Shown piece by piece: positions 4,704 to 55,342 of a DNA stretch of 64,000 bases (its first letter is position 1; every line of letters starts with the position of its first letter). The notes under the pieces were generated by a model. It made no database searches. It was not told where the DNA came from and worked only from the letters and a program-made list of their open reading frames with translations. This DNA is from Candidatus Micrarchaeota archaeon (GTDB lineage Archaea; Micrarchaeota; Micrarchaeia; Anstonellales; Bilamarchaeaceae): the NCBI GenBank assembly GCA_040757035.1, contig JBFLYM010000002.1, positions 4,300 to 68,299 on the forward strand, in the 5' to 3' direction. Both the position numbers and the translations under genes were made by a program.

Positions 4704-5966
4704 TTATTCCAATAACCACTTCCATAATGGAATTAGCTTTATTGCTTTGTTTTTCACCTTTAGTCCAGCTTCAAAATCTATGGTGATTATTGTTAAATTG
4801 TTGCACTTAAGTCTTTCACTTGCTGCAATAAGCGCATCAATTTCCCGTTCCTTCAGTTCATCTAGCAAGGATAGTGCAGTAACTTGAATTAGCTCTACGA
4901 TTTTTTGGCGTCTTTTCAAAACAAAGTCCACTTCCTTCTGGAAATAATCCTTCCAATAATAAACTTCCAATTCATGGTCCGTCTCTTTTTTCCGTTGAAG
5001 CTGAATAGCAACAATGTTTTCAAGAATTCGTCCTTTATTTTCTGAGAACTTGAAACCGATCAGATTAACAATTCCTGAGTCGATGCAATAAACCTTCTTG
5101 GGTGCAATAAACTGCTGTTTTAGCTTGAAGTCAAAACGTTCAACTTTAAAGACCAAAAAGCATTCTTCAAGATATGAAAACCACTTGGAAACAGTGGAAA
5201 CGTGTTTTACATCGAGCAGTTTTGCCAAAGAGCTATAAGTGAATTCTCCAGCAATGTTGGAAACAAGATATTTAGCCATTTGCTTTAGATTATCGCTTTT
5301 CTTTATTTTGTGTCTAACAACAATATCTTTGGTCAGAACGTCATCATATGTCCTTAGAAGTATCGTTTTGCCAAACTTGTAGGCCTCTGGCATGCCGCCG
5401 TTGATAAGGTAATCCTGAAGGTAATTGCCTATAATCGCCTTTTCCTGTGTAGTGTAGGCCTTTGAAAAGGTGAAATCCCGAAACGACAAATATTCTTTAA
5501 ATGAGAAGGGAAACAGCCTGATGGCTATGTGCCTGCCAGTGATGTGAGTGGCCAGTTCACTCGATAACAGACTGGAATTGCTGCCGGTGAGGATAACCCG
5601 CTTTGAACGCCTTAACCTATTGGCAAAAAGTTCCCAACCAACTATGTTCTGGATCTCATCCAAAACAATATAATCTATTTCCCTATAAAGCTCATAGAAG
5701 GCTTGCAAAACAGAGTCTAAATCGCTCGCCTTAAGCCCGAAAAGCCGCTCGTCGTCAAAGTTAACGTAGCCGAACTGGTGCCCTTGTTCAAGCAAATAGG
5801 AGAATATTGATTTACCGCACCGCCTAATCCCGGTAACTACAAGGATATTTGGGTAGTTGAGATAGGTCCGTGCTTCCGATAATCCTTCCCTCGGGATAAT
5901 ATGCTCGGTTTTTTGGATATTCTCCAATTCGAGCCTCTGCTCTTTGATAATTCCTTTTAAATCCAT
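4704..5966 (-). CDS. AAA+ ATPase, COG1373 type (AAA_14 plus DUF4143/PD-(D/E)xK-like C-terminal domain), paralog 1
   Basis: Walker A GIRRCGKS and Walker B VLDEIQ. C-terminal E..DFV..K motif. Ends ...LWKWLLE, as in the paralogs at 10086 and 21649. Confidence 0.75.
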   Translation of the reverse strand: MDLKGIIKEQRLELENIQKTEHIIPREGLSEARTYLNYPNILVVTGIRRCGKSIFSYLLEQGHQFGYVNFDDERLFGLKASDLDSVLQAFYELYREIDYIVLDEIQNIVGWELFANRLRRSKRVILTGSNSSLLSSELATHITGRHIAIRLFPFSFKEYLSFRDFTFSKAYTTQEKAIIGNYLQDYLINGGMPEAYKFGKTILLRTYDDVLTKDIVVRHKIKKSDNLKQMAKYLVSNIAGEFTYSSLAKLLDVKHVSTVSKWFSYLEECFLVFKVERFDFKLKQQFIAPKKVYCIDSGIVNLIGFKFSENKGRILENIVAIQLQRKKETDHELEVYYWKDYFQKEVDFVLKRRQKIVELIQVTALSLLDELKEREIDALIAASERLKCNNLTIITIDFEAGLKVKNKAIKLIPLWKWLLE

Positions 5967-6082
5967 GATAGATTATTAGAAAACAAATTTAAAAAGTTTT
6001 CTATTATGATAGATAACATTAAGTTGGACTAGTATATTTATAATTTGCGCTGTGATATTTCAGTGAGAGTTTGGTCGGGTAG

Positions 6083-6772
6083 TTGATAATGGTAACCGTA
6101 GCACATGTAGTATCAAAGCTTATAAGAATGGAGCCAATAATTGAGGACGCGCTTGCAAAGGATTTATTCAATTATTCAAAATTAGCCACGTATTTTCATT
6201 CTAAAGTTGAAAAAGAGATGAATAAACCGATCAAACTTTCAGCAATAATCATGGCAATAGCGCGCGCATCAGAAAAAATCAGGCAGGAATATCACAGGCA
6301 AGCGCATAAACTTTATTTTGCGCAAATAGAACTCAGCGTGCGTTCTGGTCTTGCGGAAATAACAATACAAAAATCCACATCATGTTTTAATAAAATCACT
6401 GAACTTTACAATATTGTTGATCTTTCTGCAGGGGATATTCTAAACATCAACTTGGGCGGAAGCGAAGTTTCAATAGTATATACTGCGCACTATATGAACG
6501 AATTCAAAAAAGCGCTTGAGGATGAGAATATAAAATTAGAGATTAGCGGTCTTGCTGAAATATCGGTGCGCTTTCCGAAAGATTGTTTATACGAACCTGG
6601 TTTTATTTACGCGATAACAAGACAATTTGCGTGGTATTCAATAAATATAGTTGAGATAATTTCTACTTTAAGCGAGCTTATATTAGTAATAAAAAATGAG
6701 GATACCACACGAGCATATAGCGCGCTTCAAGAACTTTTTTCGCAAAGTTCGCAACAGAGTTCGCAAAAATAA
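6083..6772 (+). CDS. hypothetical protein (possibly ACT-like regulatory domains)
   Basis: 229-aa ORF with good coding periodicity. No recognisable catalytic motif. Confidence 0.4.
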   Translation: MIMVTVAHVVSKLIRMEPIIEDALAKDLFNYSKLATYFHSKVEKEMNKPIKLSAIIMAIARASEKIRQEYHRQAHKLYFAQIELSVRSGLAEITIQKSTSCFNKITELYNIVDLSAGDILNINLGGSEVSIVYTAHYMNEFKKALEDENIKLEISGLAEISVRFPKDCLYEPGFIYAITRQFAWYSINIVEIISTLSELILVIKNEDTTRAYSALQELFSQSSQQSSQK

Positions 6773-6967
6773 ATAGCCCCGATCGGATTCTCGCCACTCA
6801 ATCCCAACGTTATCTAAAGAGGGTAAAGCCCCCTTGGGCTGACATTCGAACCGATGTTACAAGGTTTCTCCATTTTTTAGTGGATCAGTATATTTTGTGT
6901 TCCAAAATTGAAAACAGAAAACAAGGAAACCAGAGCCTTGTATCCTTGACCGCTAGAAGACGGGGCT
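6773..6967. ncRNA. candidate structured RNA / GC-enriched intergenic element
   Basis: Convergent intergenic region clearly GC-richer than its surroundings. Terminal inverted repeat agccccg...cggggct could close about 185 nt. Contains an R1-derived motif ttttttagtggatcagtata at 6874-6893. Confidence 0.2.
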
Positions 6968-9787: not shown

Positions 9788-10085
9788 AATTTACATCTGT
9801 AATTCAATCATTCGTAACTTAATCATTCGTAATTAAGTTTGGTAATTAAGTTTGATCATTCGGTGATCACCCGGACAAACTAAAAATGATAGAAAACTTA
9901 ATATAACCTTACCTAAAAATATTTCGGCATTTGGCGAACTGCAACTAATCTTCCTTGAACTGCAGACCTAAATTTCCTTATCTTGAATCATACCGTTGGT
10001 GTGATGAGCTTAGATCGCATTCGCCGCATTTCGGCGCTCAGTAAAACGTAACATTTAAATATATTTTGTTACGTTATAATGTAAC

Positions 10086-11381
10086 ATGGGTATAGACAAA
10101 TTAAACGAATGGAATCCATGGTGGGAGAATAGAGAATCCTTATCTGAATTTACAGGCAAATCAAGGCCAGCATATCTTCAAATACTCAATTCTATAGACA
10201 TAAAGGAAATAACTATATTAACTGGTGTAAGAAGATCTGGAAAAAGTACGTTGATGTATCAGATGATTGATAATTTGCTAAAACAGGGAATTGATTCAAA
10301 ACAGATAGTTTTCGTAAATTTAGAAGATAAAAAACTTTCGAAAGATAGTTTGGATGATATTTACATAGCTTATAGAAAAGAACTCAATCCTGATAGAAAG
10401 GCGTATATTTTTTTTGATGAGATTCATAAGAAAAAGGATTGGGAGTTCTGGATAAGAAAAAAGTATGATTTAAAAACAAATGATAAATTCGTTATTTCCG
10501 GCTCTTGTTCTTATTTATTAAAAAAAGAATACTCTACTTTATTAACTGGGAGGAATATTTCTTATGAAATATTTCCTTTAAGTTTTGAAGAATTTTTATT
10601 GTTTAAAGGCATAGAGATCAATAAAGACAATTTGAAAAAAGGCATAATGATCGAAAAAACAAGATTCTTAATTCTTAAATTTCTTGATGAATACCTAGAT
10701 TTTGGCGGCTTTCCAGAGGTTTTTTTTAAACCAATAAATTTCAAAATAAAACTTTCGGAACAATATTTTGATGATATCCTCTATAAAGACATAATAGATA
10801 GATATAATCCAAATAGTCAAAAAACAAAGGATTTTGCATTATTTTTGATGACTAATTTTACGAGTTTGATTTCGTTAAGAAACATAAGAAATGCGCTTGG
10901 TATATCATATGACTCAATAAAGGATTATTTATCATATTACAAAGAAGCATTTTTATTTTTTATATTGAATCATTTTTCCTATTCCTTCAAAGAACAAAAA
11001 ACTTTGCCGTCCAAGATTTATTGTATAGACAATGGGTTAAGAAATGCCGTTAGCTTCAAATTTTCCAAAGACAAAGGAAAACTCGCAGAGAATGTTGTTT
11101 TTATTGAGTTAAGAAGACGAGGAAAAGATATTTATTATTGGAGAAATAAGGGTGAAATAGACTTTATAATAAAGAACAAGGATCAAACACTGACCGCCAT
11201 AAATGTTTCGTATACCGATGAGATTCCGGAAAGAGAAGTATTCTCATTAAAAGAATTTGAATCAGAATATAAAAACAAAGTGAAGGAACTCGTTTTGATA
11301 ACCGAAAGCATGGAAAAGGAAGAGGAAGGAATTAGGTTTGTTTCCCTATGGAAATGGTTGTTAGGGATGTTAGAAGAGTAA
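10086..11381 (+). CDS. AAA+ ATPase, COG1373 type (AAA_14 + DUF4143), paralog 2
   Basis: GVRRSGKST Walker A and FFDEIH Walker B. C-terminal GEIDFIIKNK (ExDxxxK). Ends SLWKWLLGMLEE. Confidence 0.75.
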   Translation: MGIDKLNEWNPWWENRESLSEFTGKSRPAYLQILNSIDIKEITILTGVRRSGKSTLMYQMIDNLLKQGIDSKQIVFVNLEDKKLSKDSLDDIYIAYRKELNPDRKAYIFFDEIHKKKDWEFWIRKKYDLKTNDKFVISGSCSYLLKKEYSTLLTGRNISYEIFPLSFEEFLLFKGIEINKDNLKKGIMIEKTRFLILKFLDEYLDFGGFPEVFFKPINFKIKLSEQYFDDILYKDIIDRYNPNSQKTKDFALFLMTNFTSLISLRNIRNALGISYDSIKDYLSYYKEAFLFFILNHFSYSFKEQKTLPSKIYCIDNGLRNAVSFKFSKDKGKLAENVVFIELRRRGKDIYYWRNKGEIDFIIKNKDQTLTAINVSYTDEIPEREVFSLKEFESEYKNKVKELVLITESMEKEEEGIRFVSLWKWLLGMLEE

Positions 11382-11402
11382 TTATATTATACGTTTGAGT
11401 AA

Positions 11403-12806: not shown

Positions 12807-12891
12807 TAAAAAAACGTGGATCGCATATACTCAACCAATCGAGATAAAACCTAAAAAACAAAACCGGAAAAACTTAGTTGGTTGAGTATAT
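12794..12891. repeat. 98-bp nested-hairpin repeat, copy B (family R1, opposite orientation to copy A)
   Basis: Reverse complement differs from 3261-3358 at one base. Confidence 0.9.
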
Positions 12892-21479: not shown

Positions 21480-21496
21480 TATACATATATGCGATC

Positions 21497-21516
21497 GATT
21501 TAGCGGCTCAGTAAAA
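21497..21516. repeat. 20-bp motif cgatttagcggctcagtaaa (left boundary of the two-ATPase block)
   Basis: Identical 20-mer at 24318-24337. A related 15-mer tcggcgctcagtaaa at 10036-10050 lies upstream of ATPase paralog 2. Confidence 0.7.
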
Positions 21517-21648: not shown

Positions 21649-22899
21649 TTATCTCGACATCCACTTCCAAGCTGGTTCAATTACTATTCTTTTCTTATCT
21701 ATTTCTAATTTATCTTCTTGATCGAGCGTTATTATTATTCCTTCTTTCAAATTGTATCTATCTAATGCTTCCAAAAGCCCGCCCAGCTCCCGATCTTTAT
21801 TCTCATCTCCAACCTTAAAACAAACCTGCACTGCGAAAATTATCTTGTTGGCATCTTTGACCAGGAAATCGCATTCGCGCTTGCCTTTAAAATAATAAAT
21901 ATTTCTATATTTTTTTCTGAGATGCACATAAACAAGGTTTTCCAATAGTCTTCCCTTATCTTCAGATAGCGAAGTTGAGTTTATTCTTGATAATCCGTTG
22001 TCTATGGAGTATAATTTTTTTGGATTTACTAATTGTTTTCTCATTGAATAATCAAATCGAGGAACCGTAAACGCAAGATAACTATCTTCAAAAAACGAAA
22101 TGAAAGAAATAACACTATTGACCGAACCCAGTTCGAATATTTTCTTAAGAGAATTGTAGCTAAATTCCTTTCCAAAATTTGATAGAATGTACAGTGCCAT
22201 TTCATTTAAGGTTTTCAAATTCCTTATTTTGTGCCTTATAGATATATCTCTTGCGACAATATCGCCCAGCAAATGCCTGAGAACCTCGGGGTTTCGTTCT
22301 TTTAGATATTCCGGAAAGCCGCCGTTCCTTAGGTATTCCTCAAACGAATCCACGTCCGGATTCTGTTTCGTAAATTCTAAAAATTCAATATAAGAGAAGG
22401 GGTATAATTCATAAGTTAAGTGTCTGCCTGTCAAACGCGTTCCCAATTCTTTGCTTAGTAATGAAGCGTTGGAACCAGTTATAACAACATATTTTTTCTT
22501 TTCCAGGAGAGATCTTATATAGAGTTCCCATTTGTCCACGCTCTGTATCTCATCAAAAAAATAACAATTCTGTTCCCCTAATTCTTCTTTAAAAGCCTCA
22601 TCCAATCGCTGGAAGTCATTCAGTCCGAAACCAAATGCACGTGGGTCGTCGAAGTCGAAATAATAAAACGACTGATATTTCTTCATTAATTGGCGCATTA
22701 GTGTACTCTTGCCGCATCGTCTTATCCCAGAGATAATTATCGCAAAATTGGTAATTACTGGCATCTCTTTTAATTTTTCCCGTTCTACTCCATAATCCCG
22801 TTGTTTGAACTCTTTATTTTGGGATCGTACAATTTCCTTTAGAACATCCTTTAATATCATGGATGTAGTTTCTACATCTCTCTTTATAAATGTTTTCAT
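21649..22899 (-). CDS. AAA+ ATPase, COG1373 type (AAA_14 + DUF4143), paralog 3
   Basis: GIRRCGKST and FFDEIQ motifs. C-terminal RECDFLVKD. Ends PAWKWMSR. Confidence 0.75.
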   Translation of the reverse strand: MKTFIKRDVETTSMILKDVLKEIVRSQNKEFKQRDYGVEREKLKEMPVITNFAIIISGIRRCGKSTLMRQLMKKYQSFYYFDFDDPRAFGFGLNDFQRLDEAFKEELGEQNCYFFDEIQSVDKWELYIRSLLEKKKYVVITGSNASLLSKELGTRLTGRHLTYELYPFSYIEFLEFTKQNPDVDSFEEYLRNGGFPEYLKERNPEVLRHLLGDIVARDISIRHKIRNLKTLNEMALYILSNFGKEFSYNSLKKIFELGSVNSVISFISFFEDSYLAFTVPRFDYSMRKQLVNPKKLYSIDNGLSRINSTSLSEDKGRLLENLVYVHLRKKYRNIYYFKGKRECDFLVKDANKIIFAVQVCFKVGDENKDRELGGLLEALDRYNLKEGIIITLDQEDKLEIDKKRIVIEPAWKWMSR

Positions 22900-22953
22900 T
22901 GATAGTGCACACTATTGCTCATTGGCAATGAAATGGTGCTTACTTAATAATAT

Positions 22954-22995
22954 TCTTTTCCGATGCGATTAACCGCGCATGCAAATATTCCATTT
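22954..22995. repeat. 42-bp intergenic copy of an internal segment of the CN-hydrolase gene
   Basis: Exact 42/42 identity with 24514-24555 (minus strand encodes NGIFACAVNRIGKE). Together the two copies flank the ATPase gene 23020-24102 in direct orientation. Confidence 0.9.
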
Positions 22996-23019: not shown

Positions 23020-24102
23020 CTACAAACCCTGATCGCGTCTCACAGCCGAAAACTTCAAGGCTTCTTTTATAATTGGGTCTCCGAGATTGTATTTTCCCCC
23101 TTTTTCTTCTATGAACCCATATTCCTGCAGCTGATCAAGAAGATTGGAAAGCCTGCTATCTGGAATTGGTTGACCTGATTTCGCTATGATAAAATTTTTT
23201 ATTTCGTTCCATGAAAGCGGCTCTTGGCTGAGAGACGCCAATATAAACAGATAGCGCTCCTTTGCCGCGATTCTCATGTTTAGGAACTCCTTAAGTTCAG
23301 CCGCTATAATCTTTGAGCTGTCTTTTAGTGTTTTTGAAAGAGCAACTTCATGGAACAATTCCTGCCTATAAAAACCATAATAAGTAAGCCAGCCAATCAC
23401 ACCGTCAAGCTTATCAACCGCTGTTTCAATTTCATTTTCTCGAATATTTATTTTCAACTGAGCAAAACCGGTCCTTAAAAACGTGATAGAATCCTTGCGT
23501 TCCAGCCTCCTTAAATTTATCACTTTTTTTGGCCGCCCATACAGTAGGCTCCCGATCTCGGAGCCTATAAACTTGTCCAATATGCCTATTTCGGAACCGG
23601 CAAGTATGATTTTTATTCTTTTTAGTCTATCGTAGATGAAAGCCAAGAAACGGTCAAATCCTGAGGGTTTTAGAAGCTGAACTTCGTCAATAAAAAGGCA
23701 GAAAAAATCATTTCTATCCTCCATCATCTTATCAATTCTTTTTGCCAACTCGCTCAGGCCCTTTTCTTCCCTAAAGCTTAATTTTACATAAATATCCAGG
23801 CCTTCAAGATAGGATTTCGCTTTCTCGTACATGCTTATACTTCTTAGAAAATCGTAAAATGTCCTTCCAATATGTTCATAAACTGCTTTCCTCCCCTTCG
23901 CAATTTCCCTAGAATCGATAAAAAGCTTTGGATGTTTGATTTCGCTGTAAACTACATTCATTAAACTAGTCTTGCCTGTTCTTCGCAATCCGCGCAACAC
24001 TATGAGCCGCTGCTGTTCGAGTACCCTTTCTATTTCCGCACATTCCTTATCGAAACCGAACAAATCTTTTCTGCTCGTCTTTGGTGTGATGTCAAAGTAC
24101 AT
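23020..24102 (-). CDS. archaeal ATPase (Arch_ATPase/COG1672-like, with C-terminal wHTH)
   Basis: LRGLRRTGKTSL Walker A and LFIDEVQ Walker B. Architecture differs from the COG1373 paralogs. Confidence 0.65.
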   Translation of the reverse strand: MYFDITPKTSRKDLFGFDKECAEIERVLEQQRLIVLRGLRRTGKTSLMNVVYSEIKHPKLFIDSREIAKGRKAVYEHIGRTFYDFLRSISMYEKAKSYLEGLDIYVKLSFREEKGLSELAKRIDKMMEDRNDFFCLFIDEVQLLKPSGFDRFLAFIYDRLKRIKIILAGSEIGILDKFIGSEIGSLLYGRPKKVINLRRLERKDSITFLRTGFAQLKINIRENEIETAVDKLDGVIGWLTYYGFYRQELFHEVALSKTLKDSSKIIAAELKEFLNMRIAAKERYLFILASLSQEPLSWNEIKNFIIAKSGQPIPDSRLSNLLDQLQEYGFIEEKGGKYNLGDPIIKEALKFSAVRRDQGL

Positions 24103-24317
24103 GAAGAACGTTTAAGTGGAAAGGCTTTTAATACTAACGGGGCGTTAGTTACTAACGGGACGTTAGTAATTGTATGCTAATTATATGAAACTAAATCGAA
24201 AGGCATACCTTTTGAGATAGATACAACTACTGTAGATCAAATGACCGTAATGGCAGAGCCAATAAACCAAAAATATATCGATGAAGTGCTCAAGATTTCT
24301 CAAATTTCTGGATTTAG

Positions 24318-24337
24318 CTCGATTTAGCGGCTCAGTA
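24318..24337. repeat. 20-bp motif cgatttagcggctcagtaaa (right boundary of the two-ATPase block)
   Basis: See 21497-21516. Preceded by a local tandem gctaaatc x2. Confidence 0.7.
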
Positions 24338-25205
24338 AATGAGTATAACATTCAGATCTGCGATTATTGAGGAATTGCCAGCCGTTTCTTATTTTTTTAC
24401 ACATGGTTAAATCAACAACCGCAATAGAAGTGGTTTCGTTTCTACCAGCGCGCTTTATTATTTTGCCAAACGCATCGCATACGAACGAACCACCCCAAAA
24501 AGTTATTCTATCTTCTTTTCCGATGCGATTAACCGCGCATGCAAATATTCCATTTGCAATACAATGTCCGCGCATTACATTTTCCCACGCGCTTTTCCAA
24601 TTACCTTCGGTTTGTTTTATTCCTTTTATCGTACCTATTGCGGTGGGATAAAATATGATGTCCGCTTTCATAAGCGCGCTTATTCTTGCGGCTTCTGGAA
24701 ACCATTGGTCATAGCATATAAGTACGCCAATATTTCCATAATTTGTTTTGAACACTTTGAATTCTTCTCCGGGCGCAAAATAGTCCTTTTCCCAATAGCA
24801 TTCATCATATGGGATGTGAACTTTGCGGTATTTTCCTATTATGTTTCCGTTCTGGTCAAAAATTATAGAAGTGTTATATATTCTTTCGCCCGCTTTTTCG
24901 CATACCGAACCGCCTACGAGTATTATATTGTTATCACGCGCCGCTTTCGCAAGCGCATCTATAATTCTTTCAAAATTATCAGTGTATTCCGCGGTATATT
25001 TCGCGCGCTCATTTGTTTTTTTATATTGTGCGAAATATTTTGAAGCGAAAAGTTCAGGGAGACAAACAATGTTTGCGCCTTTTTTTGAGGCCATTGCGAT
25101 TTGTTTTACAGTACGCGCCAAATTTTCAGTAACGCTGTTGGACATACGCATTTGTATTAACCCTATCTTTGTCTTTCTTTTAGTTAACTCTAAGCGTTTG
25201 ATCAT
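24324..25205 (-). CDS. aguB: carbon-nitrogen hydrolase (N-carbamoylputrescine amidase-like)
   Basis: E-K-C triad context with PELF, RKVHIP and GVLICYDQWFPE. ORF opens at 25277 but the start is probably MIKRLELTK at 25205. Confidence 0.7.
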   Translation of the reverse strand: MIKRLELTKRKTKIGLIQMRMSNSVTENLARTVKQIAMASKKGANIVCLPELFASKYFAQYKKTNERAKYTAEYTDNFERIIDALAKAARDNNIILVGGSVCEKAGERIYNTSIIFDQNGNIIGKYRKVHIPYDECYWEKDYFAPGEEFKVFKTNYGNIGVLICYDQWFPEAARISALMKADIIFYPTAIGTIKGIKQTEGNWKSAWENVMRGHCIANGIFACAVNRIGKEDRITFWGGSFVCDAFGKIIKRAGRNETTSIAVVDLTMCKKIRNGWQFLNNRRSECYTHLLSR

Positions 25206-46695: not shown

Positions 46696-47634
46696 TTACT
46701 TCGTTAGTTTTGCTAGACACGTATTAGAACCTATAATTGGGAGAGCGTATTCAGAATTTTTAGATTGAGAAACGATAATTAGAACAAATTGCATAGAACT
46801 ATTGCAATCACGTTTTGCTAACTCATAATCTTGTTCATCACATACGATGATATATTTTGAATTATTTATATCTGTTATAATTACTTTTGGTAATTTTTTT
46901 ATAGGTAGGTAAGGGTCGCGAGTTCCATCTTCACATGTTCTTCCATCTAAATAAATTATTGTACCCTCAATTTTCTTCTCTTTGTAATTAGGTTGAAATA
47001 TCTCAATCATTTCAGGTGAAACAGCAACAGTGTACCATATAGGTCCAAGTTTAAATGCATAAAATTCACATTTCAGATTATCTTTACCATAAGTTGGAAA
47101 AACATTATAACCAAAATTCACGTGCGCCCACCCCTTAGGGACATAATATAACATAGGACACACAATCCGAGAAGGTAAGTTTAGAAACCAACCATTAGTC
47201 TTTTTAAAATCTACCTGCTGGCCCCTGGTTGCCTTAGGATCATAATTAAAGCGTTGTATATTTGGATTAAGTTTCATCTCTTTTTCAGCATTTTCTAGCT
47301 CTGAAAATGGAATTGTCTGTAGTTCTTTTGCACACGCAAGCGGAATTTTAAACATACCTAGAATTTTGTCAACTGGAGTCGTATTTGTTTTTTGATTTTG
47401 TGGTAGAACTTGCTCAATTCCAGGTTTTTTGTTGTTATCTAGGGGGTTTTTAGTTTGAGTATTATACAGTGCGGGTCCAGATAATGGACTTATTAAAGAT
47501 GCCACCAATAAGGAACTTGCTAACTTTTTTGCTATTTCTTTTTTTCTTTGTATTTTCGGAGGTGTAATCTTCTCCACTTTTTTTTCATGTCCTACCATAA
47601 TCTTATTTATGAGACAAAAAATATATAAAACCAT
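46696..47634 (-). CDS. secreted hypothetical protein
   Basis: Signal-peptide-like KKLASSLLVASLISPLSGPALY and several Cys in the mature part. Confidence 0.4.
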   Translation of the reverse strand: MVLYIFCLINKIMVGHEKKVEKITPPKIQRKKEIAKKLASSLLVASLISPLSGPALYNTQTKNPLDNNKKPGIEQVLPQNQKTNTTPVDKILGMFKIPLACAKELQTIPFSELENAEKEMKLNPNIQRFNYDPKATRGQQVDFKKTNGWFLNLPSRIVCPMLYYVPKGWAHVNFGYNVFPTYGKDNLKCEFYAFKLGPIWYTVAVSPEMIEIFQPNYKEKKIEGTIIYLDGRTCEDGTRDPYLPIKKLPKVIITDINNSKYIIVCDEQDYELAKRDCNSSMQFVLIIVSQSKNSEYALPIIGSNTCLAKLTK

Positions 47635-47739
47635 AGGTTCGTTCGTAACAGTTCGTTTTTCTTCATATCCTTAATCAATTCAACAAAATCCGCTGCATTC
47701 TCTTTTTTCTTTTCTTTGTTTTCGTCGCTTTCATTTGCA

Positions 47740-47787
47740 TTCTGGCAATTGTGGCATAGTAGCTGTTTGCCGGTATTTGCCAATATT
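47740..47787. repeat. 48-bp direct repeat, left copy, flanking the AlbA_2 gene
   Basis: ttctggcaattgtggcatagtagctgtttgccggtatttgccaatatt matches 49120-49168 with 3 mismatches. Internally palindromic (tggcaa/ttgcca, ggca/tgcc). Confidence 0.85.
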
Positions 47788-47815: not shown

Positions 47816-49120
47816 ATGAAGCTAACCGAATCTCAGCATGCTGAATTTAAGGAAAGTCTTGCTAATCTTGATGCTATTGTAATTAGTGTGGTAGCCTTTG
47901 CGAATAACGGTGGCGGTAAAATATATATTGGAATAAAGGATGATGGAACAATAAAGGGTATTGATGTCGGAAAAAATACAATTGAAAATCTGGCTGCTGT
48001 AATCACAAAAAATACTGAGACAGCAATACTGCCAAGGATTTATATTGAAGGAATTGAAAAAAAAATCATAATAGTCGTTGAAGTTGAAGAAAGCTCGGCC
48101 AAACCTCATTTTTATCGTAAAATTGCATATAAAAGGGTTGGAAAATCCAATATTCAAATGGACATTTTAGAAATAAAACAAATGATCTTAGATCAATCTG
48201 AACGTAGTTTTGATGAAAGCCTTTTTGAGTTTGATTTATCAGAAATTAATACCTCTGTTTTCAATCGGTTCCTGGAAAAATGTAAGCAGAGCGGTAGATT
48301 AAACGTCAAAGAAGATGCGAGTTTAGAAGATCATATTGAAAAGTTGGGCGCATTAAAAGAAAGAAAGGTAAAATTAGGATTTTTACTAATGTTTGCTCAA
48401 AACCCAACCCATTTTCTTCCTCATTTTGGGGTAAAACTTGCAAAAATATCTTCACAAACATTTTCAATTGGTTCGCTTGAACGCAGTATATTTTATACCG
48501 AATCAATATTCAGAGTGATAGATGAGATAGTATTTGAAATAGTCAAAGAACTACCTAAAAGAGTGTACTTAGATGGCTCCAAACGTATAGAAGAACCTAT
48601 AATTCCAACTTCAGCAATTAGAGAATTTGTAGCCAATGCTTTGGTTCATTGTGATTATAGGATTGCATCATCTATTTCGATTTTGCTTACCCCAACTTGT
48701 TTAGAAATATCCAACCCAGGCAGATTGATGGGTTTGAAAATCCAGGATCTTTACAAAAAACACCGCTCAATACTTCGTAATCCATTTCTTGCCAGATTAA
48801 TGTTCCTTTCAGGAGATATTGAAGAATGGGGATCTGGAATTGAAAATGCAAATATAGCTGTACTAAAATCTGGCCTAAGTTTGCCACAATTCAATGTTAA
48901 TTCTGGTTTTTTCAGCGTACGAATAAATTTTGGTACTTCTCAAATTTCTGCTTCGGATAAAATTATCAAAATGCTCAAAGCAGGTCCATTAAGTAGTAAA
49001 CAAATAGCCAAAAAACTAGATATTGCAGACCGAACCGTGAGGGCGGAATTAAAGAAACTTGTGGATTTGGAAGCAATAAAAAAACAGCGAAAAGGTCGCA
49101 AAATTACCTATAAAATTTGA
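47816..49120 (+). CDS. AlbA_2 (Schlafen-like) + HATPase_c_4 + C-terminal HTH protein (putative DNA-binding/regulatory ATP-binding protein)
   Basis: N-terminal ESQHAEFKESL...AFANNGGGKIYIGIKDDGTIKGIDVG matches the AlbA_2 domain signature. C-terminal KQIAKKLDIADRTVRAELKKL is an HTH. Confidence 0.65.
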   Translation: MKLTESQHAEFKESLANLDAIVISVVAFANNGGGKIYIGIKDDGTIKGIDVGKNTIENLAAVITKNTETAILPRIYIEGIEKKIIIVVEVEESSAKPHFYRKIAYKRVGKSNIQMDILEIKQMILDQSERSFDESLFEFDLSEINTSVFNRFLEKCKQSGRLNVKEDASLEDHIEKLGALKERKVKLGFLLMFAQNPTHFLPHFGVKLAKISSQTFSIGSLERSIFYTESIFRVIDEIVFEIVKELPKRVYLDGSKRIEEPIIPTSAIREFVANALVHCDYRIASSISILLTPTCLEISNPGRLMGLKIQDLYKKHRSILRNPFLARLMFLSGDIEEWGSGIENANIAVLKSGLSLPQFNVNSGFFSVRINFGTSQISASDKIIKMLKAGPLSSKQIAKKLDIADRTVRAELKKLVDLEAIKKQRKGRKITYKI

Positions 49121-49168
49121 TTCTGGCAATTGTGGCATAATAGTTGTTTGCCAGTATTTGCCAATATT
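49120..49168. repeat. 48-bp direct repeat, right copy
   Basis: See 47740-47787. Begins at the stop codon of the 47816-49120 gene. Confidence 0.85.
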
Positions 49169-49173
49169 CAGAT

Positions 49174-50418
49174 TTATGAGAGCCGTTTTTTATAATCAGA
49201 ATATCCAAATTTTCGCACTATGCGCAAGTTTTCTTTACCGTTTAGTTTATGCGGATTGTAAATAGCAATTGAAGGATGCCTTACACCATTAAACATTGTT
49301 GTTTTCACCATGGAGTAATGCGCCATATCCAGAAAAACCAGCTTATCTCCAACACCGAGAGGTTTTGCAAACGAATAATCCCCGATTATATCTCCAGCAA
49401 GGCAGGTCACTCCAGTTAATTGATAGGTATATTTTTGTTCGCCTGGTTTTCCAGCCCCAATAATTTCTGGGCGATAGGGCATCGCAAGCACATCAGGCAT
49501 ATGAGCTTCTGCAGAAGTGTCCAATATCGCAATTTTCATTTTGCTTTTGATTATTACATCTAAAACGCTTGCTACGAGCACACCCGCATTAAGCGCAACC
49601 GCTTCGCCTGGTTCAAGATAAACTTGCACAGAATATTTTTTCTTAAAATCGTTTATTGTTTTGCATAACAAATCAACATCGTAATCATTCCTTGTGATAT
49701 GATGACCGCCACCAAAATTTATCCATTTCATTTCAGAAATATAATTTTTGTACAATTTTTCAAACGATTTCAAAACGCGCACAAGTACATCTGAATTTTG
49801 TTCGCATAACGCATGAAAATGCAGTCCGTCTATTTTTGAAGCAATCTCGTCCAAATCCTCGCATTCGAGGTCTTCTGGTCGCACACCGAGCCTTGAACCT
49901 GGAACGCATGGATTGTAAAGCCTTGTTTTTATCTCAGAATATCCTGGATTTACCCTGAGTCCAACTTCTATTTTTTTTCCCAATTTTTTTTCAGATTCGG
50001 TTATCGCATCGCGATATTTTTTCCATTGCGAAATTGAGTTGAAAATTATGCAATTAGAATAGCGAATTACTTCATCCATGTCGCGTTTAGAATAAGCCGG
50101 CGCAAATGTATGAACTTCTTTTCCAAATTCTTCTTTGCCGAGTCGCGCTTCAATCGCTCCGCTTGCGCACACGCCATCAAGATATTTTTTTATTAATGGA
50201 AAAGTGGAATGCATCGCAAATGCTTTCAGAGCAAGAAAAATTTTTGTATTTGTACGCTTCCGAACCGAACTCAAAATTTTCAAATTCTTTTTCAGCAAAT
50301 CTTCATTCACGATAAAGCATGGCGTTTCTATTTTATCTGTAATTTTTTTCGGGAAATTTTCTAATTCCCTGATATTGAACTTATCTGCGTTCATAGTTTC
50401 ATTCATAGTTTTATTCAT
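49174..50418 (-). CDS. nspC: carboxynorspermidine/carboxyspermidine decarboxylase (PLP-dependent)
   Basis: FLALKAFAM PLP-lysine motif, GGG..HHITRNDYD and the overall fold II decarboxylase layout of NspC. Confidence 0.75.
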   Translation of the reverse strand: MNKTMNETMNADKFNIRELENFPKKITDKIETPCFIVNEDLLKKNLKILSSVRKRTNTKIFLALKAFAMHSTFPLIKKYLDGVCASGAIEARLGKEEFGKEVHTFAPAYSKRDMDEVIRYSNCIIFNSISQWKKYRDAITESEKKLGKKIEVGLRVNPGYSEIKTRLYNPCVPGSRLGVRPEDLECEDLDEIASKIDGLHFHALCEQNSDVLVRVLKSFEKLYKNYISEMKWINFGGGHHITRNDYDVDLLCKTINDFKKKYSVQVYLEPGEAVALNAGVLVASVLDVIIKSKMKIAILDTSAEAHMPDVLAMPYRPEIIGAGKPGEQKYTYQLTGVTCLAGDIIGDYSFAKPLGVGDKLVFLDMAHYSMVKTTMFNGVRHPSIAIYNPHKLNGKENLRIVRKFGYSDYKKRLS

Positions 50419-51747: not shown

Positions 51748-51845
51748 TATACCGATCCACTAAAAAAACGTGGATCGCATATACGCAACCTGTCGAGATA
51801 AAACCTAAAAAACAAAACCGGAAAAACTTAGTGGGTTGCGTATAT
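51748..51845. repeat. 98-bp nested-hairpin repeat, copy C (family R1) with compensatory stem substitutions
   Basis: Same architecture as copies A and B, but the outer stem is acgcaacc/ggttgcgt instead of actcaacc/ggttgagt. A paired T>G / A>C change preserves the hairpin. Confidence 0.85.
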
Positions 51846-51928
51846 GATGAAATTGGATGATGAAATTAGTAGGACCGGTGGTTGGTTTAATAGTTGACTT
51901 GATGGCGAGATTAATGATGGGTTAATGG

Positions 51929-53437: not shown

Positions 53438-54031
53438 ATGTCAATTGTAATTGAAATATTTGTAAATTTTTTTTCTGCGCTCATTTACTTACTTATTATA
53501 ATAGATCCGTTTGCGAGCCTTCCAATATTCGCAACTCTTACTCGAAAAATGACTGATTCAGAAATGCGTTTCTGCGCAAATCAAGCAGTGTTTATTGCAG
53601 GAGCACTCGCTTTGTTGTTCATATTTGCAGGCACTCAAATACTTTCTTTAATACAAGTAGATCTTCAATCATTTAAAATAGGAGGTGGAATAATTCTTGG
53701 TCTTCTTGGTCTTGAAACTGTGTTTGGATTTAGCTTTTCGAACAATGCAAAAAATAAGAATAACGCAATCATAACTCTCATCGCAACTCCATTGCTTACT
53801 GGACCCGGCCTTATAACTTCGCTTATAGTAATGACAAATGAGCAAGGTTATGTAATTCCGCTGACAGCAACCATTTCCGCACTTTATATTTCATTACTAA
53901 TACTTGAAAATTCGGCCAGGATAAGCAAAAAGCTTGGTTCTGGAACAATTAATATTATCACTAGAGTTTTTGGCTTATTTTTAGTTGCACTTGGAGTTTC
54001 TTATATACGCGCAGGTATTATCGCTACATAG
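53438..54031 (+). CDS. MarC-family (UPF0056) integral membrane protein
   Basis: 197 aa, six TM helices, N-terminal IIDPFASLPIF motif. Confidence 0.65.
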   Translation: MSIVIEIFVNFFSALIYLLIIIDPFASLPIFATLTRKMTDSEMRFCANQAVFIAGALALLFIFAGTQILSLIQVDLQSFKIGGGIILGLLGLETVFGFSFSNNAKNKNNAIITLIATPLLTGPGLITSLIVMTNEQGYVIPLTATISALYISLLILENSARISKKLGSGTINIITRVFGLFLVALGVSYIRAGIIAT

Positions 54032-54101
54032 TATCCAATGCTTTTTTGATAAATCTCGAACGGAAAATTTTTCGTCGCGAAGAGAGATATGGAGAAAAAA
54101 T

Positions 54102-54153
54102 TTGTTCAGACTTACGACCATTTTCGACTATTTTTGGTCGGTTTTCTGAACAA
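54102..54153. repeat. 52-bp palindromic direct repeat, left copy, flanking ATPase paralog 5
   Basis: ttgttcagacttacgaccattttcgactatttttggtcggttttctgaacaa. Nested inverted repeats ttgttcaga/tctgaacaa and cgacca/tggtcg. Matches 55381-55432 with 1 mismatch. Confidence 0.9.
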
Positions 54154-55342
54154 AACCAAGAACAATAAGCGCATCGTCGTTCATGACAACTCCTTTCTTT
54201 CCTTCGAATTGAGAGGTTCCTTTGGAACTTCCACCTATTTCGAACAAAACAGTTTTCTCACCAATTTTAACTAGATAATCAGGAACTTTTCTCATTTTTT
54301 TAGGTATGAAAATTGGAAATCCGAGTTCGGAAATGTGAAAGACAAAATATTCTTCTCGCAGTGCACCCAATTCCGCTTCGCGCATGAGTTGGTCTGCAAA
54401 AGCCGAACGTAGATTCGGATGCGAAAAAATCAGTTTAACCGTTGCCTTTGCTTTTGCTTTCGGGGAGTCTTCTTCTATATATCTTATTATCCCCAATTCG
54501 TACAACATGCGTGCGGCCTCATAAACCGTTGATTTTGCATATCCGCTCATTAAGGAGAATGAAGTATAACTAAATTCTCCTGGTTTGGATGATGCCAAAA
54601 AAGAAAGAAGTCGTTCTGCAACATCAACCTTGTTTTCACTAAGGCTGAATTCTGCGAGTGCGTCTTCGTATATCATTTTTTTCATGAGTCGGAATATCGC
54701 ATCTTTTGCCGAAATTCCAGACGGAAATCCGCCTAAATTCAAGTATGTTCGATAATGTTTTTCAATATCCGGATGAGCCGCAAGCCAGTGTATTGTATTT
54801 TTTTTATCCACTGCTTCTTCTAAACTGGCAGAATAATCCGCACAATCCAAAATGTAAACAAATTCGCGGAAAGTTAGCGGGGACAGGGGCATTTCGATTG
54901 CCCGACGCCCTAACGTTATCGCGCCTTTTTTCAACGCAGCTGTAGAAGACCCAGAAACTACAATCGTCAAATCAAAATTATCACAAATATTTTTCAGTTC
55001 GTTTATCCATCTCACGTATTGATGAATTTCGTCTATGAATATTATCTTGTATCCGTTTCTGTATAAATGCTCTATAGTATTATAAAGACCTTCGGATTTG
55101 ATTAGCACAGAATCTGCTGAAAAATAAAAAGATTCTTTATATTCGTCGAACAATTGAATAAGAAGAGTGGTTTTTCCAATTCCTCGTATTCCAGGAACGA
55201 TTATTACTGGTTTCTTCATATTTTGCCCTTTGAATTCCTCAATAAGGCGTTTTAGTTTCGGATATAATAAGCGCTTCCTATAATCCTTTACAAGTAAGGT
55301 ATTTTCCACGGCTACTCGATAGAGTTTTTCTATTTCGATCAT
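54128..55342 (-). CDS. AAA+ ATPase (COG1373-like), paralog 5
   Basis: GIRGIGKTTLL Walker A and FIDEIHQ Walker B. Last 8 codons and stop lie inside the left 52-bp repeat. Confidence 0.7.
   Translation of the reverse strand: MIEIEKLYRVAVENTLLVKDYRKRLLYPKLKRLIEEFKGQNMKKPVIIVPGIRGIGKTTLLIQLFDEYKESFYFSADSVLIKSEGLYNTIEHLYRNGYKIIFIDEIHQYVRWINELKNICDNFDLTIVVSGSSTAALKKGAITLGRRAIEMPLSPLTFREFVYILDCADYSASLEEAVDKKNTIHWLAAHPDIEKHYRTYLNLGGFPSGISAKDAIFRLMKKMIYEDALAEFSLSENKVDVAERLLSFLASSKPGEFSYTSFSLMSGYAKSTVYEAARMLYELGIIRYIEEDSPKAKAKATVKLIFSHPNLRSAFADQLMREAELGALREEYFVFHISELGFPIFIPKKMRKVPDYLVKIGEKTVLFEIGGSSKGTSQFEGKKGVVMNDDALIVLGFVQKTDQK

What the first reader, a model, noticed from the sequence alone, without database searches (positions are those of the whole stretch)
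4704..55342. Five paralogous AAA+ ATPase genes in 64 kb, four with a predicted nuclease-like C-terminal domain and a conserved WKWLL tail
The ORFs at 4704-5966, 10086-11381, 21649-22899 and 54128-55342 share the COG1373 architecture: Walker A/B AAA core plus a C-terminal region with an E.DF..K (PD-(D/E)xK-like) motif. Three end in the motif (L/A)WKW(L/M). A fifth, 23020-24102, is a COG1672 Arch_ATPase. The density of about one per 13 kb, the variable flanks, the bounding repeats and the duplicated target fragments suggest a selfish or defence-related paralogous family, not housekeeping enzymes. Their function is unknown.
Basis: partly seen in the sequence, partly recalled or inferred. Interest (0 to 1): 0.65.

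Follow-up and report, generated by a model that had tools for sequence, protein, structure and literature searches.

The report
Mobile ATPase–nuclease gene cassettes in DPANN
Five ATP-binding protein genes scattered among housekeeping genes of a tiny archaeon belong to a very common but untested "candidate defence" family, and here they behave as single-gene mobile cassettes that were pasted in horizontally, leaving direct-repeat scars.

Summary
All five ORFs are real. Three (4704-5966, 10086-11381, 21649-22899) are textbook AAA_14 + DUF4143 proteins (COG1373 = PADLOC candidate PDC-S01). 54128-55342 is a divergent member of the same family. 23020-24102 is a different ATPase_2-type ATPase with a winged helix and no nuclease domain.

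A confident AlphaFold model shows an ORC/Cdc6-like AAA+ core, a winged helix and a C-terminal restriction-endonuclease fold (best matches McrC, Can2, Hjc). The canonical (D/E)xK lysine is missing, so nuclease activity remains open.

The host is a Micrarchaeota (DPANN) MAG and the neighbours are housekeeping genes. Close homologues (75-85% identity) lie in unrelated neighbourhoods, while housekeeping proteins of those or the nearest genomes are only 42-70% identical. Homology covers just promoter plus ORF.

Across the window and the fetched loci, 14/87 family genes but 1/182 other ORFs are bracketed by direct repeats (p = 7e-7). The 54128-type carries the same 48-nt palindrome on both sides in six different contexts.

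Verdict: new members of a known, functionally uncharacterised kind. The cassette and repeat anatomy is the interesting part, and self-mobilisation is not excluded.

The parts
4704..5966 (-). P1. A 420-aa protein with an AAA_14 ATPase, a winged helix and a DUF4143 (PD-(D/E)XK-fold) domain, ending in a WKWLL helix.
   Evidence: Pfam and PADLOC hits. AF2 model with pLDDT 88.9. Foldseek on the whole protein and on the C-terminal domain. GC3 is an outlier at z +2.6.
5967..6006 (-). P1 promoter/operator. An inverted repeat AGAAAAC...GTTTTCT flanks a TTTTTAAA TATA-like box. This is the only non-coding sequence conserved with orthologues that sit in other contexts.
   Evidence: blastn homology with L002, L004 and L005 starts about 40 nt upstream of the ATG and ends at the stop codon.
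10086..11381 (+). P2. A 431-aa AAA_14 + DUF4143 paralogue. No bracketing repeat was found.
   Evidence: Domain hits. No bracketing repeat. GC is 0.29 (z -2.5).
10045..10075 (+). P2 promoter palindrome AACGTAACA-TTTAAATATATTT-TGTTACGTT. It is a putative operator overlapping the TATA box.
   Evidence: Read directly from the sequence. The regulatory function is inferred.
21649..22899 (-). P3. A 416-aa AAA_14 + DUF4143 paralogue with the tail PAWKWMSR.
23020..24102 (-). P5. A 360-aa ATPase_2-type (Arch ATPase / COG1672-like) ATPase with an MCM_C-like winged helix and no nuclease domain.
   Evidence: Pfam ATPase_2 at 37.9 bits and MCM_C at E 2.8e-10. PADLOC PDC-S27 at E 8.7e-7. GC3 z +2.2.
24132..24167 (-). 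Two tandem 18-nt palindromes (ACTAACG-N-CGTTAGT) just upstream of P5. They form a putative operator.
   Evidence: Tandem-repeat finder and sequence reading. The regulatory function is inferred.
54128..55342 (-). P4. A 404-aa divergent family member (AAA_14, RuvB_N-like). Its C-terminal domain carries P-D-Y...E-x-G...K. The last 8 codons lie inside the palindrome.
   Evidence: Sequence read.
54101..54154 (.). Downstream copy of the P4-type palindrome (GTTCA-N7-CGACC-N14-GGTCG-N7-TGAAC).
   Evidence: The motif is conserved in six contexts. DNA hairpin dG -12.3 kcal/mol, z -7.
55380..55433 (.). Upstream copy of the P4-type palindrome. It is 98% identical to the downstream copy and lies 38 nt upstream of the P4 start.
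22950..22995 (.). R46a. A displaced 46-nt copy of an internal segment of the carbon-nitrogen hydrolase gene, lying 24 nt after the P5 stop.
24510..24555 (.). R46b. The resident copy inside the carbon-nitrogen hydrolase CDS (24324-25277).
21495..21515 (.). R21a. A 21-nt exact copy of the hydrolase stop region, lying 15 nt after the ilvN stop. It marks the far end of the 2.8-kb P3+P5 insertion.
24319..24339 (.). R21b. The resident copy, made up of the last codons and stop of the hydrolase gene.
4672..4711 (.). R40b. A 40-nt copy (88% identical) of the internal lysA segment 4251-4290, lying between the P1 stop and the lysA start.
   Evidence: The arrangement is unexplained.

Best explanation
Identity of the genes. 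Four genes (P1-P4) are members of the COG1373 / AAA_14-DUF4143 family, which PADLOC lists as candidate system PDC-S01. Each is a single polypeptide of about 48 kDa made of three parts:
- an ORC/Cdc6- and STAND-like AAA+ ATPase;
- a winged-helix DNA-binding domain;
- a C-terminal restriction-endonuclease-fold domain.
P5 is an ATPase_2-type relative that lacks the nuclease fold.

Gene organisation. Each gene is a minimal, self-contained cassette: its own roughly 40-nt promoter with a palindromic operator, plus the ORF. These cassettes move horizontally among DPANN archaea. They land just downstream of, or inside the 3' ends of, resident genes and leave direct repeats of 20-130 nt.

Most likely mechanism of the protein (inferred):
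1. ATP binding drives assembly on DNA that the winged helix recognises.
2. This assembly gates the nuclease-fold domain, which nicks, cleaves or clamps DNA. It would be a one-chain analogue of McrB+McrC, or of STAND/Avs sensor-effector proteins.
3. The net effect is a conflict function: defence against invading DNA, or addiction-like self-preservation.

Shown versus inferred.
- Shown: family membership, the fold, conservation of the ATPase motifs, horizontal mobility, cassette boundaries, repeat bracketing.
- Inferred: DNA cleavage, the trigger, and any benefit to the host.
For: Family membership and fold:
- Pfam and PADLOC hits. PDC-S01 model PDLC04787 matches P1-P3 full length at E 1e-105 to 1e-111, and P4 at E 2.7e-24.
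- The full-length AF2 model has pLDDT 88.9 and pTM 0.89. Its best Foldseek matches are P. abyssi Walker ATPase 2qen, Orc1/Cdc6, Apaf-1, Avs4, MalT and RuvB.
- The C-terminal domain model (pLDDT 87) best matches McrC, Can2, Hjc and EndoMS.
- Walker A (G46, G51, K52), Walker B (D103, E104), S129 and R145 are invariant in 60 sequences.
- DUF4143 was already classified in the PD-(D/E)XK superfamily (PMC3424549).

Mobility:
- P1 orthologues at 75-85% identity lie in unrelated neighbourhoods.
- AspRS on the same contig as a 74.7%-identical P1 orthologue is only 42.5% identical to the window's AspRS.
- The hydrolase next to P5 has no homologue above 70% identity, whereas P1 has homologues at 85, 81, 80 and 78%.
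- DNA homology between orthologues runs only from -40 to the stop codon.
- GC3 is an outlier for P1 and P5, and GC for P2.

Repeat bracketing:
- Direct-repeat score >=25 was found for 14/87 family genes versus 1/182 other ORFs >=250 aa. Fisher p = 7e-7, and the inverted-orientation control gave 0.
- Where a repeat overlaps the upstream gene's 3' end, the two copies differ mostly at synonymous sites: 16 synonymous versus 5 non-synonymous codons.

Other:
- Family homologues occur on 17 IMG/VR contigs.
- PDC-S01 is reported as enriched in Archaea, and multiple PDCs are enriched in DPANN (PMC12988326).
Against: - No biochemical or genetic test of any family member is known to me or was found in the literature searches.
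- One PDC-S01 representative gave no protection in E. coli against T7, T5 or T4.
- The canonical strand-3 (D/E)xK is Q/N-V-(S/T/C) in the P1-P3 type, so the domain could be catalytically dead or use a migrated lysine (K351).
- The P1 clade is unusually conserved (60-85% identity across several DPANN phyla, all about 420 aa). This could also reflect a strongly constrained cellular role.
- Only about 16% of family genes show a bracketing repeat.
- No empty site could be found to prove insertion directly.
Confidence: 0.6

Rival explanations
1. Self-mobilising selfish cassette. The ATPase-nuclease is itself the enzyme that excises or integrates its own gene. For example, it could nick or resolve a cruciform or branched DNA at the flanking repeat and hand the ends to host recombination. 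The family would then be a new kind of minimal mobile element, and its abundance would reflect selfish spread rather than defence.
For: - The mobile unit contains no other gene. There is no integrase or transposase in the window or in the 1.3-1.8-kb repeat-to-repeat units.
- Repeat bracketing is essentially specific to this family among 269 ORFs tested.
- The P4 type carries the same 48-nt palindrome on both sides in six unrelated contexts. That palindrome occurs nowhere else in about 760 kb. The copies within a locus are 98-100% alike while the coding DNA between loci is only about 64% identical.
- The nuclease fold resembles the Holliday-junction resolvase Hjc and McrC. P4 also matches RuvB_N.
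- Tandem arrays and orphan 3'-end remnants of family genes are seen in L074 and L048.
- PDC-S01 failed a defence test.
Against: - PD-(D/E)XK enzymes hydrolyse DNA and are not known to do strand transfer on their own.
- The catalytic motif is non-canonical.
- Two unrelated cassette genes without this nuclease domain are also repeat-bracketed: P5 and the AlbA_2/HATPase_c_4 gene at 47816-49120. This points to a general, host- or trans-acting insertion route.
- The repeats vary in length (20-130 nt) and sequence, unlike a defined transposase stagger.
- No circular or empty-site junction was observed.
Confidence: 0.2
2. Passenger cassettes of an integron-like or homology-driven capture system. The genes are ordinary accessory cargo that is excised as small circles and re-inserted. 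The route would be either host homologous recombination (Campbell-type, via a carried piece of the previous neighbour's 3' end) or a trans-acting site-specific recombinase acting on attC-like palindromes. The repeats then say nothing about what the protein does.
For: - The repeat copies differ mainly at synonymous sites of the neighbouring gene. This is expected if one copy was imported from a diverged orthologue.
- Non-family cassettes show the same bracketing.
- In L074 the crossover sequence is the shared 40-45-nt 3' end of tandem family genes.
- Archaeal integrons and integrase-less attC clusters exist, also in DPANN. Their attCs are more alike within than between genomes (PMC9668308), as seen for the P4 palindrome.
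Against: - There is no integron integrase and no attC array here.
- The palindrome is 48-54 nt and starts with GTTCAGA and ends with TCTGAAC. This is the reverse of the attC box order RYYYAAC...GTTRRRY (sequence reading; attC definition from my own knowledge).
- Campbell insertion of the P4 type needs a pre-existing target copy of the palindrome, and none was seen.
- 182 other ORFs in the same loci show bracketing only once.
Confidence: 0.25
3. Cellular, non-conflict role. The proteins are ORC/Cdc6-like DNA-binding regulators or replication/repair factors with an inactivated nuclease-fold domain used only for DNA binding or oligomerisation. On this reading they are duplicated because DPANN lineages need several specificities.
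For: - The architecture is ORC/Cdc6-like.
- Palindromic operators at the promoters suggest sequence-specific DNA binding.
- The canonical lysine is missing.
- The P1 clade is highly conserved in sequence and length.
- There is a negative defence assay.
Against: - No synteny.
- Horizontal transfer well beyond the similarity of housekeeping genes.
- Repeat bracketing, compositional outliers and presence on viral contigs.
- Patchy multi-copy distribution and enrichment near or inside defence loci, as reported by the PADLOC authors.
Confidence: 0.1

Closest known systems
COG1373 / Pfam AAA_14 (PF13173) + DUF4143 (PF13635) = PADLOC candidate system PDC-S01
   Same: - P1-P3 match both Pfam domains and the PDC-S01 profile over their full length. 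P4 matches AAA_14 and PDC-S01.
- The family is described as an ATPase fused to a PD-(D/E)XK domain. [quoted passage not shown]
   Different: - The function of the family is unknown and untested, apart from one negative assay.
- The papers found in my literature searches do not describe the cassette boundaries, the direct-repeat bracketing, or the P4-type subfamily with terminal palindromes and no detectable Pfam DUF4143.
McrBC (AAA+ McrB plus PD-(D/E)XK nuclease McrC)
   Same: - It is an AAA+ motor coupled to a restriction-endonuclease-fold nuclease.
- McrC is the best structural match of the C-terminal domain (6ut7_G, probability 1.0, TM 0.54).
   Different: - Here there is one polypeptide rather than two.
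- The ATPase is of the ORC/Cdc6-STAND type, not the McrB GTPase clade.
- There is no N-terminal modified-DNA reader domain.
- The catalytic lysine is not in the canonical place.
Orc1/Cdc6 initiators and archaeal 'Arch ATPase' (ATPase_2; P. abyssi PABY2304, PDB 2qen)
   Same: - The AAA+ core, lid and winged-helix architecture match; these are the top Foldseek hits for the whole protein.
- P5 matches ATPase_2 above the Pfam cut-off.
   Different: - P1-P4 have an extra C-terminal nuclease-fold domain.
- The genes are multi-copy, horizontally mobile and non-syntenic.
- No origin-like features were examined.
STAND antiviral ATPases (Avs) and Apaf-1-like switches
   Same: - The nucleotide-gated switch ATPase has a similar fold (Avs4, Apaf-1, MalT, Avs5).
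- In Avs proteins the effector can be a PD-(D/E)XK nuclease (my own knowledge).
   Different: - There is no large repeat sensor domain.
- The protein is only about 420 aa.
- The nuclease is C-terminal, after a winged helix.
Integron gene cassettes / CALINs, and integrative elements that duplicate the 3' end of a target gene
   Same: - These are single-ORF units bounded by imperfect palindromes or by duplicated gene 3' ends.
[quoted passage not shown]
   Different: - There is no integrase of any kind and no attI or array.
- The palindrome lacks the attC core boxes.
- The cassettes carry their own promoters.
- The repeats are different at each site, except in the P4 type.

Membership tests
COG1373 / AAA_14-DUF4143 (PDC-S01) | AAA_14 P-loop domain above the Pfam gathering score, with intact Walker A and Walker B motifs. 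| tested here: met
   P1-P4 score 83.6-126 bits against a cut-off of 27. GxxxxGK[ST] and DE are invariant in 60 sequences.
COG1373 / AAA_14-DUF4143 (PDC-S01) | DUF4143 domain above the Pfam gathering score. | tested here: met
   Met for P1-P3 (78-93 bits against 28.1). Not met for P4, which has no hit at E<=0.01. However, P4 matches the PDC-S01 profile over positions 16-349 of 412. Its homologues at 30-39% identity carry PF13635. Its clade aligns end to end with the P1 clade (hhalign; this result is inflated because P4 is itself in the target alignment).
PD-(D/E)XK superfamily (C-terminal domain) | Restriction-endonuclease-like alpha-beta-beta-beta-alpha-beta core fold. | tested here: met
   The AF2 domain model (pLDDT 87) has the right topology. 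The top Foldseek PDB hits are McrC, Can2, Hjc, EndoMS and EcoO109I. E-values are modest (5e-3) with probability 1.0 and TM 0.54-0.57.
PD-(D/E)XK superfamily (C-terminal domain) | Catalytic constellation: D on strand 2 plus (D/E)xK on strand 3. | tested here: inconclusive
   - D347 (59/60), E345 (60/60) and E316 (59/60) are conserved.
- Strand 3 has Q361 (N in P2, E in the P4 clade) followed by V and S/T/C, never K.
- An invariant K351 lies four residues after the Asp.
Anti-phage defence system (as implied by the PDC-S01 label) | Experimentally shown protection against a virus or plasmid. | not testable with these tools
   The literature reports that validation is pending. One representative gave no protection in E. 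coli B against T7, T5 or T4.
ATPase_2 / COG1672 'Arch ATPase' / PDC-S27 (P5 only) | ATPase_2 domain above the gathering score, plus the C-terminal DUF234/PD-(D/E)XK module typical of COG1672 and PDC-S27. | tested here: inconclusive
   ATPase_2 scores 37.9 bits against 33.2, so that feature is met. There is no DUF234 or nuclease module; the C-terminus is an MCM_C-like winged helix. PDC-S27 matches only at E 8.7e-7.
Integron gene cassette (attC-bounded) | attC site with R''(RYYYAAC)...R'(GTTRRRY) boxes, 57-141 nt long, and an integron integrase or attC array nearby. | tested here: not met
   The palindrome is 48-54 nt, reads GTTCAGA...TCTGAAC (box order reversed), and occurs in only two copies per locus. 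No integrase is present in the window. No attC covariance model was available.
Integrase-encoding integrative element / IS transposon | An encoded tyrosine/serine recombinase or DDE/HUH transposase, with fixed-length target duplications. | tested here: not met
   The repeat-to-repeat units are 1.3-1.8 kb and hold one gene only. Repeats vary from 20 to 130 nt. No recombinase family hit was found.
Free-standing homing endonuclease gene | One fixed cognate target locus shared by all carriers. | tested here: not met
   Close homologues of P1 and of P4 lie in different neighbourhoods in every genome examined.

The most novel reading that the evidence does not exclude
AAA_14-DUF4143 (PDC-S01) genes may be autonomous one-gene mobile elements rather than defence genes, or as well as being defence genes. 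On this reading, the ORC-like ATPase plus resolvase-like nuclease recognises its own flanking site and promotes excision and insertion of a 1.3-1.8-kb promoter-plus-ORF unit. In the P4 type that site is a conserved 48-nt cruciform-forming palindrome present on both sides. Insertion generates long direct repeats. This would explain why one of the most abundant 'candidate defence' families in prokaryotes is so widespread, multi-copy and so far inactive in a defence assay.
Probability: 0.2. Interest if true: 0.8.

Novelty: new member of a known kind. Interest (0 to 1): 0.5.

Why it matters
PDC-S01 / COG1373 is a very large family. A search of the representative library gave 9,922 clusters (at 50% identity) at E<=0.001. 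A recent survey ranks it as the fourth most frequent 'defence' type in prokaryotes, and multiple PDCs are enriched in genome-reduced DPANN archaea. Yet nobody knows what it does.

This work shows three things:
- members travel as minimal promoter-plus-ORF cassettes;
- they cross phylum-level distances;
- they are specifically bracketed by direct repeats, and one subfamily has conserved terminal palindromes.

This gives concrete, testable handles: defined DNA sites to test for binding or cleavage, and defined junctions to look for in reads. It also raises the possibility that defensome censuses are counting a selfish element.

If the genes turn out to be ordinary defence genes, the result is still useful. 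It provides a well-documented example of how single-gene accessory modules are inserted next to housekeeping genes in tiny archaeal genomes.

Tried and rejected
Searches that found nothing useful:
- tRNA and Rfam scans of the window gave no hits, so there is no tRNA-linked integration site.
- NCBIfam has no model for any of the five proteins.
- A PDB sequence search gave no relative.

Empty-site search, which failed:
- A genome-contig scan with the neighbouring hydrolase found a single locus at 69% identity with no synteny.
- An exact look-up of the PvlArgDC neighbour found nothing.
- The big protein database has no hydrolase homologue above 70% identity.
- So no close relative exists to show an uninterrupted ilvN/hydrolase or MarC/pdaD junction.

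Other dead ends:
- A viral-contig scan for the P4 palindrome gave one match inside a high-GC phage ORF, judged to be chance.
- The ~1.28-1.31-kb Logan contigs could have been read as circular cassettes. I rejected this: their ends are exactly the k-1 overhangs expected when a de Bruijn graph breaks at a repeat of 31 nt or more.
- A full-text search for 'AAA_14' returned only noise.

Ideas rejected:
- That the WKWLL tail is conserved at the DNA level as a recombination site. Synonymous positions vary freely among orthologues, so the constraint is on the protein. Even so, in L074 the shared 3' end is where tandem copies join.
- That the 54-nt repeat is a dispersed REP-like target. It was not found anywhere else.
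- That covariation supports an RNA structure for the palindrome. The stems are conserved in sequence with almost no compensatory change, which favours a DNA or protein-binding site.

Full report
**What is in the window**

The window is densely coding, about 36% GC, with no tRNA genes and no Rfam hits. An identical copy of the first protein is named in NCBI as coming from a Candidatus Micrarchaeota MAG, on a 77.7-kb contig. The host is therefore a DPANN archaeon.

The five ORFs sit singly, or in one case as a pair, between housekeeping genes:
- P1 lies between lysA and an unknown ORF followed by 2-oxoacid:ferredoxin oxidoreductase.
- P2 lies between that oxidoreductase and an MFS transporter.
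- P3 and P5 lie between ilvBN and an aguB-like carbon-nitrogen hydrolase.
- P4 lies between a MarC-family gene and pyruvoyl-dependent arginine decarboxylase.

No integrase or transposase family was detected among the window proteins scanned with Pfam, NCBIfam or PADLOC. I also saw none when reading the remaining translations.

**Checking the observation**

All five ORFs exist as stated.

- P1, P2 and P3 are AAA_14 + DUF4143 proteins (Pfam). They match the PADLOC profile PDC-S01 over their full length at E 1e-105 to 1e-111. They are 31-39% identical to each other, so they are old paralogues or independent acquisitions, not recent duplicates.
- P4 has AAA_14 but no Pfam DUF4143 hit. It still matches PDC-S01 (E 2.7e-24). 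It forms a tight clade of about 50 proteins (51-63% identity) in Micrarchaeota/Anstonellales. Its more distant homologues carry PF13635. Its C-terminal part conserves R-E-E, P-D-Y, E-x-G and a lysine.
- P5 is an ATPase_2-type ATPase with an MCM_C-like winged helix. It has no nuclease module.

The motif E.DF..K is exact in P1-P3. The WKW tail is found only in P1-P3. A six-frame search found no further copies or fragments.

**Structure**

A 60-sequence alignment gave a confident AF2 model of P1 (pLDDT 88.9, pTM 0.89). Its parts are:
- an N-terminal helix;
- an AAA+ core (residues 41-151);
- a helical lid;
- a winged helix (about 244-294);
- a C-terminal alpha-beta-beta-beta-alpha-beta domain (297-413);
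- a final helix made of the WKWLL tail.

For the whole protein, the best solved matches are the P. abyssi Walker ATPase 2qen, Orc1/Cdc6, Apaf-1, Avs4, MalT and RuvB.

The C-terminal domain was modelled separately (pLDDT 87). Its best matches are McrC from the McrBC complex, the CARF nuclease Can2, the Holliday-junction resolvase Hjc and EndoMS. The restriction-endonuclease fold predicted by Steczkiewicz et al. for DUF4143 (PMC3424549) is therefore confirmed for this protein.

The ATPase motifs are invariant. In the nuclease fold, E316, E345, D347 and K351 are conserved. The strand-3 position that normally carries (D/E)xK reads Q-V-(S/T/C), with N in P2 and E in the P4 clade. The acidic part of the site is present, the canonical lysine is not, and I could not measure whether K351 substitutes for it. 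Activity is an open question.

**Not housekeeping: horizontal mobility**

- P1 has more than 100 homologues of the same length at 60-85% identity. They are annotated as Micrarchaeota, Marsarchaeota, Pacearchaeota and Nanoarchaeota.
- The three closest homologues with usable context (85, 78 and 75% identity) lie in three unrelated neighbourhoods. One of these is full of Fic, HEPN/nucleotidyltransferase, PIN and ATPase_2 genes.
- On the contig that carries the 74.7%-identical copy, AspRS is only 42.5% identical to the window's AspRS.
- The hydrolase next to P5 has no homologue above 70% identity in 5.8 billion proteins.
- P4 homologues lie in five other contexts.
- P1 and P5 are GC3 outliers and P2 is a GC outlier.
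- Family homologues also occur on 17 IMG/VR contigs.

**Cassette anatomy**

DNA homology between P1 and its orthologues begins about 40 nt upstream of the ATG. This stretch is a TATA-like box flanked by an inverted repeat. Homology stops at the stop codon. P2 and P5 also have palindromes at their promoters. The transferable unit is therefore promoter plus ORF, probably autoregulated (the regulation is inferred).

**Direct repeats in the window**

- P4 is bracketed by a 54-nt repeat.
- P5 is bracketed by a 46-nt repeat whose resident copy lies inside the hydrolase gene.
- P3+P5 are bracketed by an exact 21-nt copy of that gene's stop region.
- An unrelated AlbA_2/HATPase_c_4 gene (47816-49120) is bracketed by a 49-nt repeat.

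The simplest history of the ilvN/hydrolase site is two successive insertions into the 3' end of the hydrolase gene. In this scenario the first insertion supplied a replacement 3' end, and the second landed in the displaced fragment. This is inference.

**Is the bracketing general?**

I fetched 80 metagenomic and 17 viral loci of the P1 clade. I scored the best ungapped direct match between the 400 nt upstream and the 400 nt downstream of every ORF of at least 250 aa.

- A score of 25 or more occurred in 14 of 87 family genes and in 1 of 182 other ORFs (Fisher p = 7e-7).
- The single exception is the window's AlbA_2 gene.
- The inverted-orientation control gave none.
- A few loci are redundant, for example L016/L017. 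About 13 bracketed cases are unique.

Repeat-to-repeat spacing is 1.3-1.8 kb, that is, one gene.

In several cases the upstream copy is the last codons of the co-oriented upstream gene, and the downstream copy starts right after the family gene's stop. Where this happens, the two copies differ mainly at synonymous sites: 16 synonymous versus 5 non-synonymous codons. This pattern is expected if one copy was imported from a diverged functional orthologue, as in integrative elements that carry a replacement 3' end. The evidence is suggestive, not decisive.

L074 holds three tandem family genes. Each is bracketed, and the first two are joined through their shared 40-45-nt WKWLL-coding ends. L048 and L074 contain orphan 3'-end remnants.

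**The P4 type**

In six independent contexts the gene is preceded (about -95 to -40) and followed (overlapping or just after the stop) by the same palindrome, GTTCA-N7-CGACC-N14-GGTCG-N7-TGAAC. The contexts are the window, L005, L104-108, L109/110, L111/112 and L113.

- Copies within a locus are 98-100% identical in the window, L005 and L104, and more diverged in L109 and L111. Copies between loci are about 86-89% identical, while the coding DNA is about 64% identical.
- The motif occurs nowhere else in the window or in 113 loci.
- Its stems are conserved in sequence with almost no covariation.
- It folds well as DNA.
- Many Logan contigs of this clade are 1272-1307 nt long. That is what a de Bruijn graph yields when it breaks at such repeats.

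The palindrome therefore belongs to the element and looks like a protein-recognised DNA site. It does not fit the attC definition. I cannot explain how it comes to be duplicated.

**What is known**

The family is already catalogued. DUF4143 is in the PD-(D/E)XK superfamily with unknown function. PDC-S01 comes from the PADLOC authors' 'guilt-by-embedding' screen. [quoted passage not shown] Validation is still pending. One representative, and one of PDC-S27, gave no protection against T7, T5 or T4 in E. coli. I found no paper describing cassette boundaries, repeat bracketing or the palindromic subfamily.

**Verdict**

These are new members of a known, uncharacterised kind.

My best explanation (confidence 0.6) is an ATP-gated, DNA-binding nuclease-fold switch with a conflict function, carried on horizontally mobile one-gene cassettes.

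The most novel reading that remains open (probability about 0.2) is that the protein mobilises its own cassette.

The decisive tests are listed in the next-steps section:
- read-level searches for empty sites and circles;
- binding and cleavage assays on the defined palindromes;
- a controlled genome-wide survey.

Noticed in passing
window 3261-3359, 12793-12894, 51748-51848 (partial copies 33800-33826, 6873-6897, 30382-30401, 14837-14855): A structured intergenic repeat of about 100 nt occurs in three full copies that are 94-99% identical. It contains two hairpins (RNA fold -32 kcal/mol, z -8.4), has no Rfam match, and is absent from all fetched loci. The copies at 3261 and 12793 are inverted and bracket a 9.6-kb block holding lysA, P1, the oxidoreductase, P2 and the MFS gene. 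It could be a MITE-like element or a small RNA.
   Followed up: partly
window 47816-49120 (+), repeats 47739-47787 / 49120-49168: A gene with SLFN_AlbA_2 + HATPase_c_4 + winged-helix domains is bracketed by a 49-nt direct repeat (94% identical, 1381-nt unit) just downstream of nspC. It matches the Schlafen-like part of pAgo-associated proteins in PADLOC. It was the only non-family ORF out of 182 with a bracketing repeat.
   Followed up: partly
window 45964-46054 / 47649-47739: A 91-nt direct repeat (95% identical) is present. One copy lies inside the unknown ORF 45838-46644. The other abuts the 49-nt repeat of the AlbA_2 cassette. Together they bracket a 1685-nt unit containing the unknown ORF 46696-47634.
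   Followed up: no
window 4251-4290 / 4672-4711: A 40-nt copy (88% identical) of an internal lysA coding segment sits between the P1 stop codon and the lysA start. It does not bracket P1 and fits none of the insertion models considered.
   Followed up: partly
window 55469-56026, 24324-25277, 49174-50418, 3267-4661: Four of the five cassette sites are immediately adjacent to a decarboxylase or polyamine-pathway gene (pdaD, aguB-like hydrolase, nspC, lysA). A post-hoc chance estimate is about 2e-3. There is no explanation.
   Followed up: partly
window 11376-11417: A 21-nt tandem duplication (86% identical) lies right at the P2 stop codon, in the 21-nt gap before the convergent MFS gene.
   Followed up: no
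window 57952-57987 / 63005-63040: A 36-nt inverted repeat (97% complementary) is present. One arm lies at the 5' end of the ribosomal protein L1 gene (57312-57995). The other lies upstream of the ORF I read as SBDS-like (63127-63822). The arms are 5 kb apart. They may be a shared promoter element.
   Followed up: no
L074 2812-7225; L048 3863-6869; L030 849-3522; L005 2728-6868: Family genes often cluster.
- L074 has three in tandem.
- L030 has two.
- L005 has a P4-type and a P1-type 1.6 kb apart.
- L048 and L002 have an ATPase_2-type gene next to or near a P1-type gene, as in the window (P5 next to P3).
- L048 and L074 carry orphan 3'-end remnants of family genes.
   Followed up: partly
L002 9131-12400: The 78%-identical P1 orthologue sits in a cluster of conflict-type genes: Fic, a HEPN + nucleotidyltransferase pair, PIN further on, and an ATPase_2 gene upstream. 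This resembles a small defence island.
   Followed up: no
L016 2596-2724 / 4150-4278 (IMG/VR contig): A family homologue on a predicted viral contig is bracketed by a 129-nt direct repeat (11 mismatches) that contains a GC-rich hairpin.
   Followed up: no
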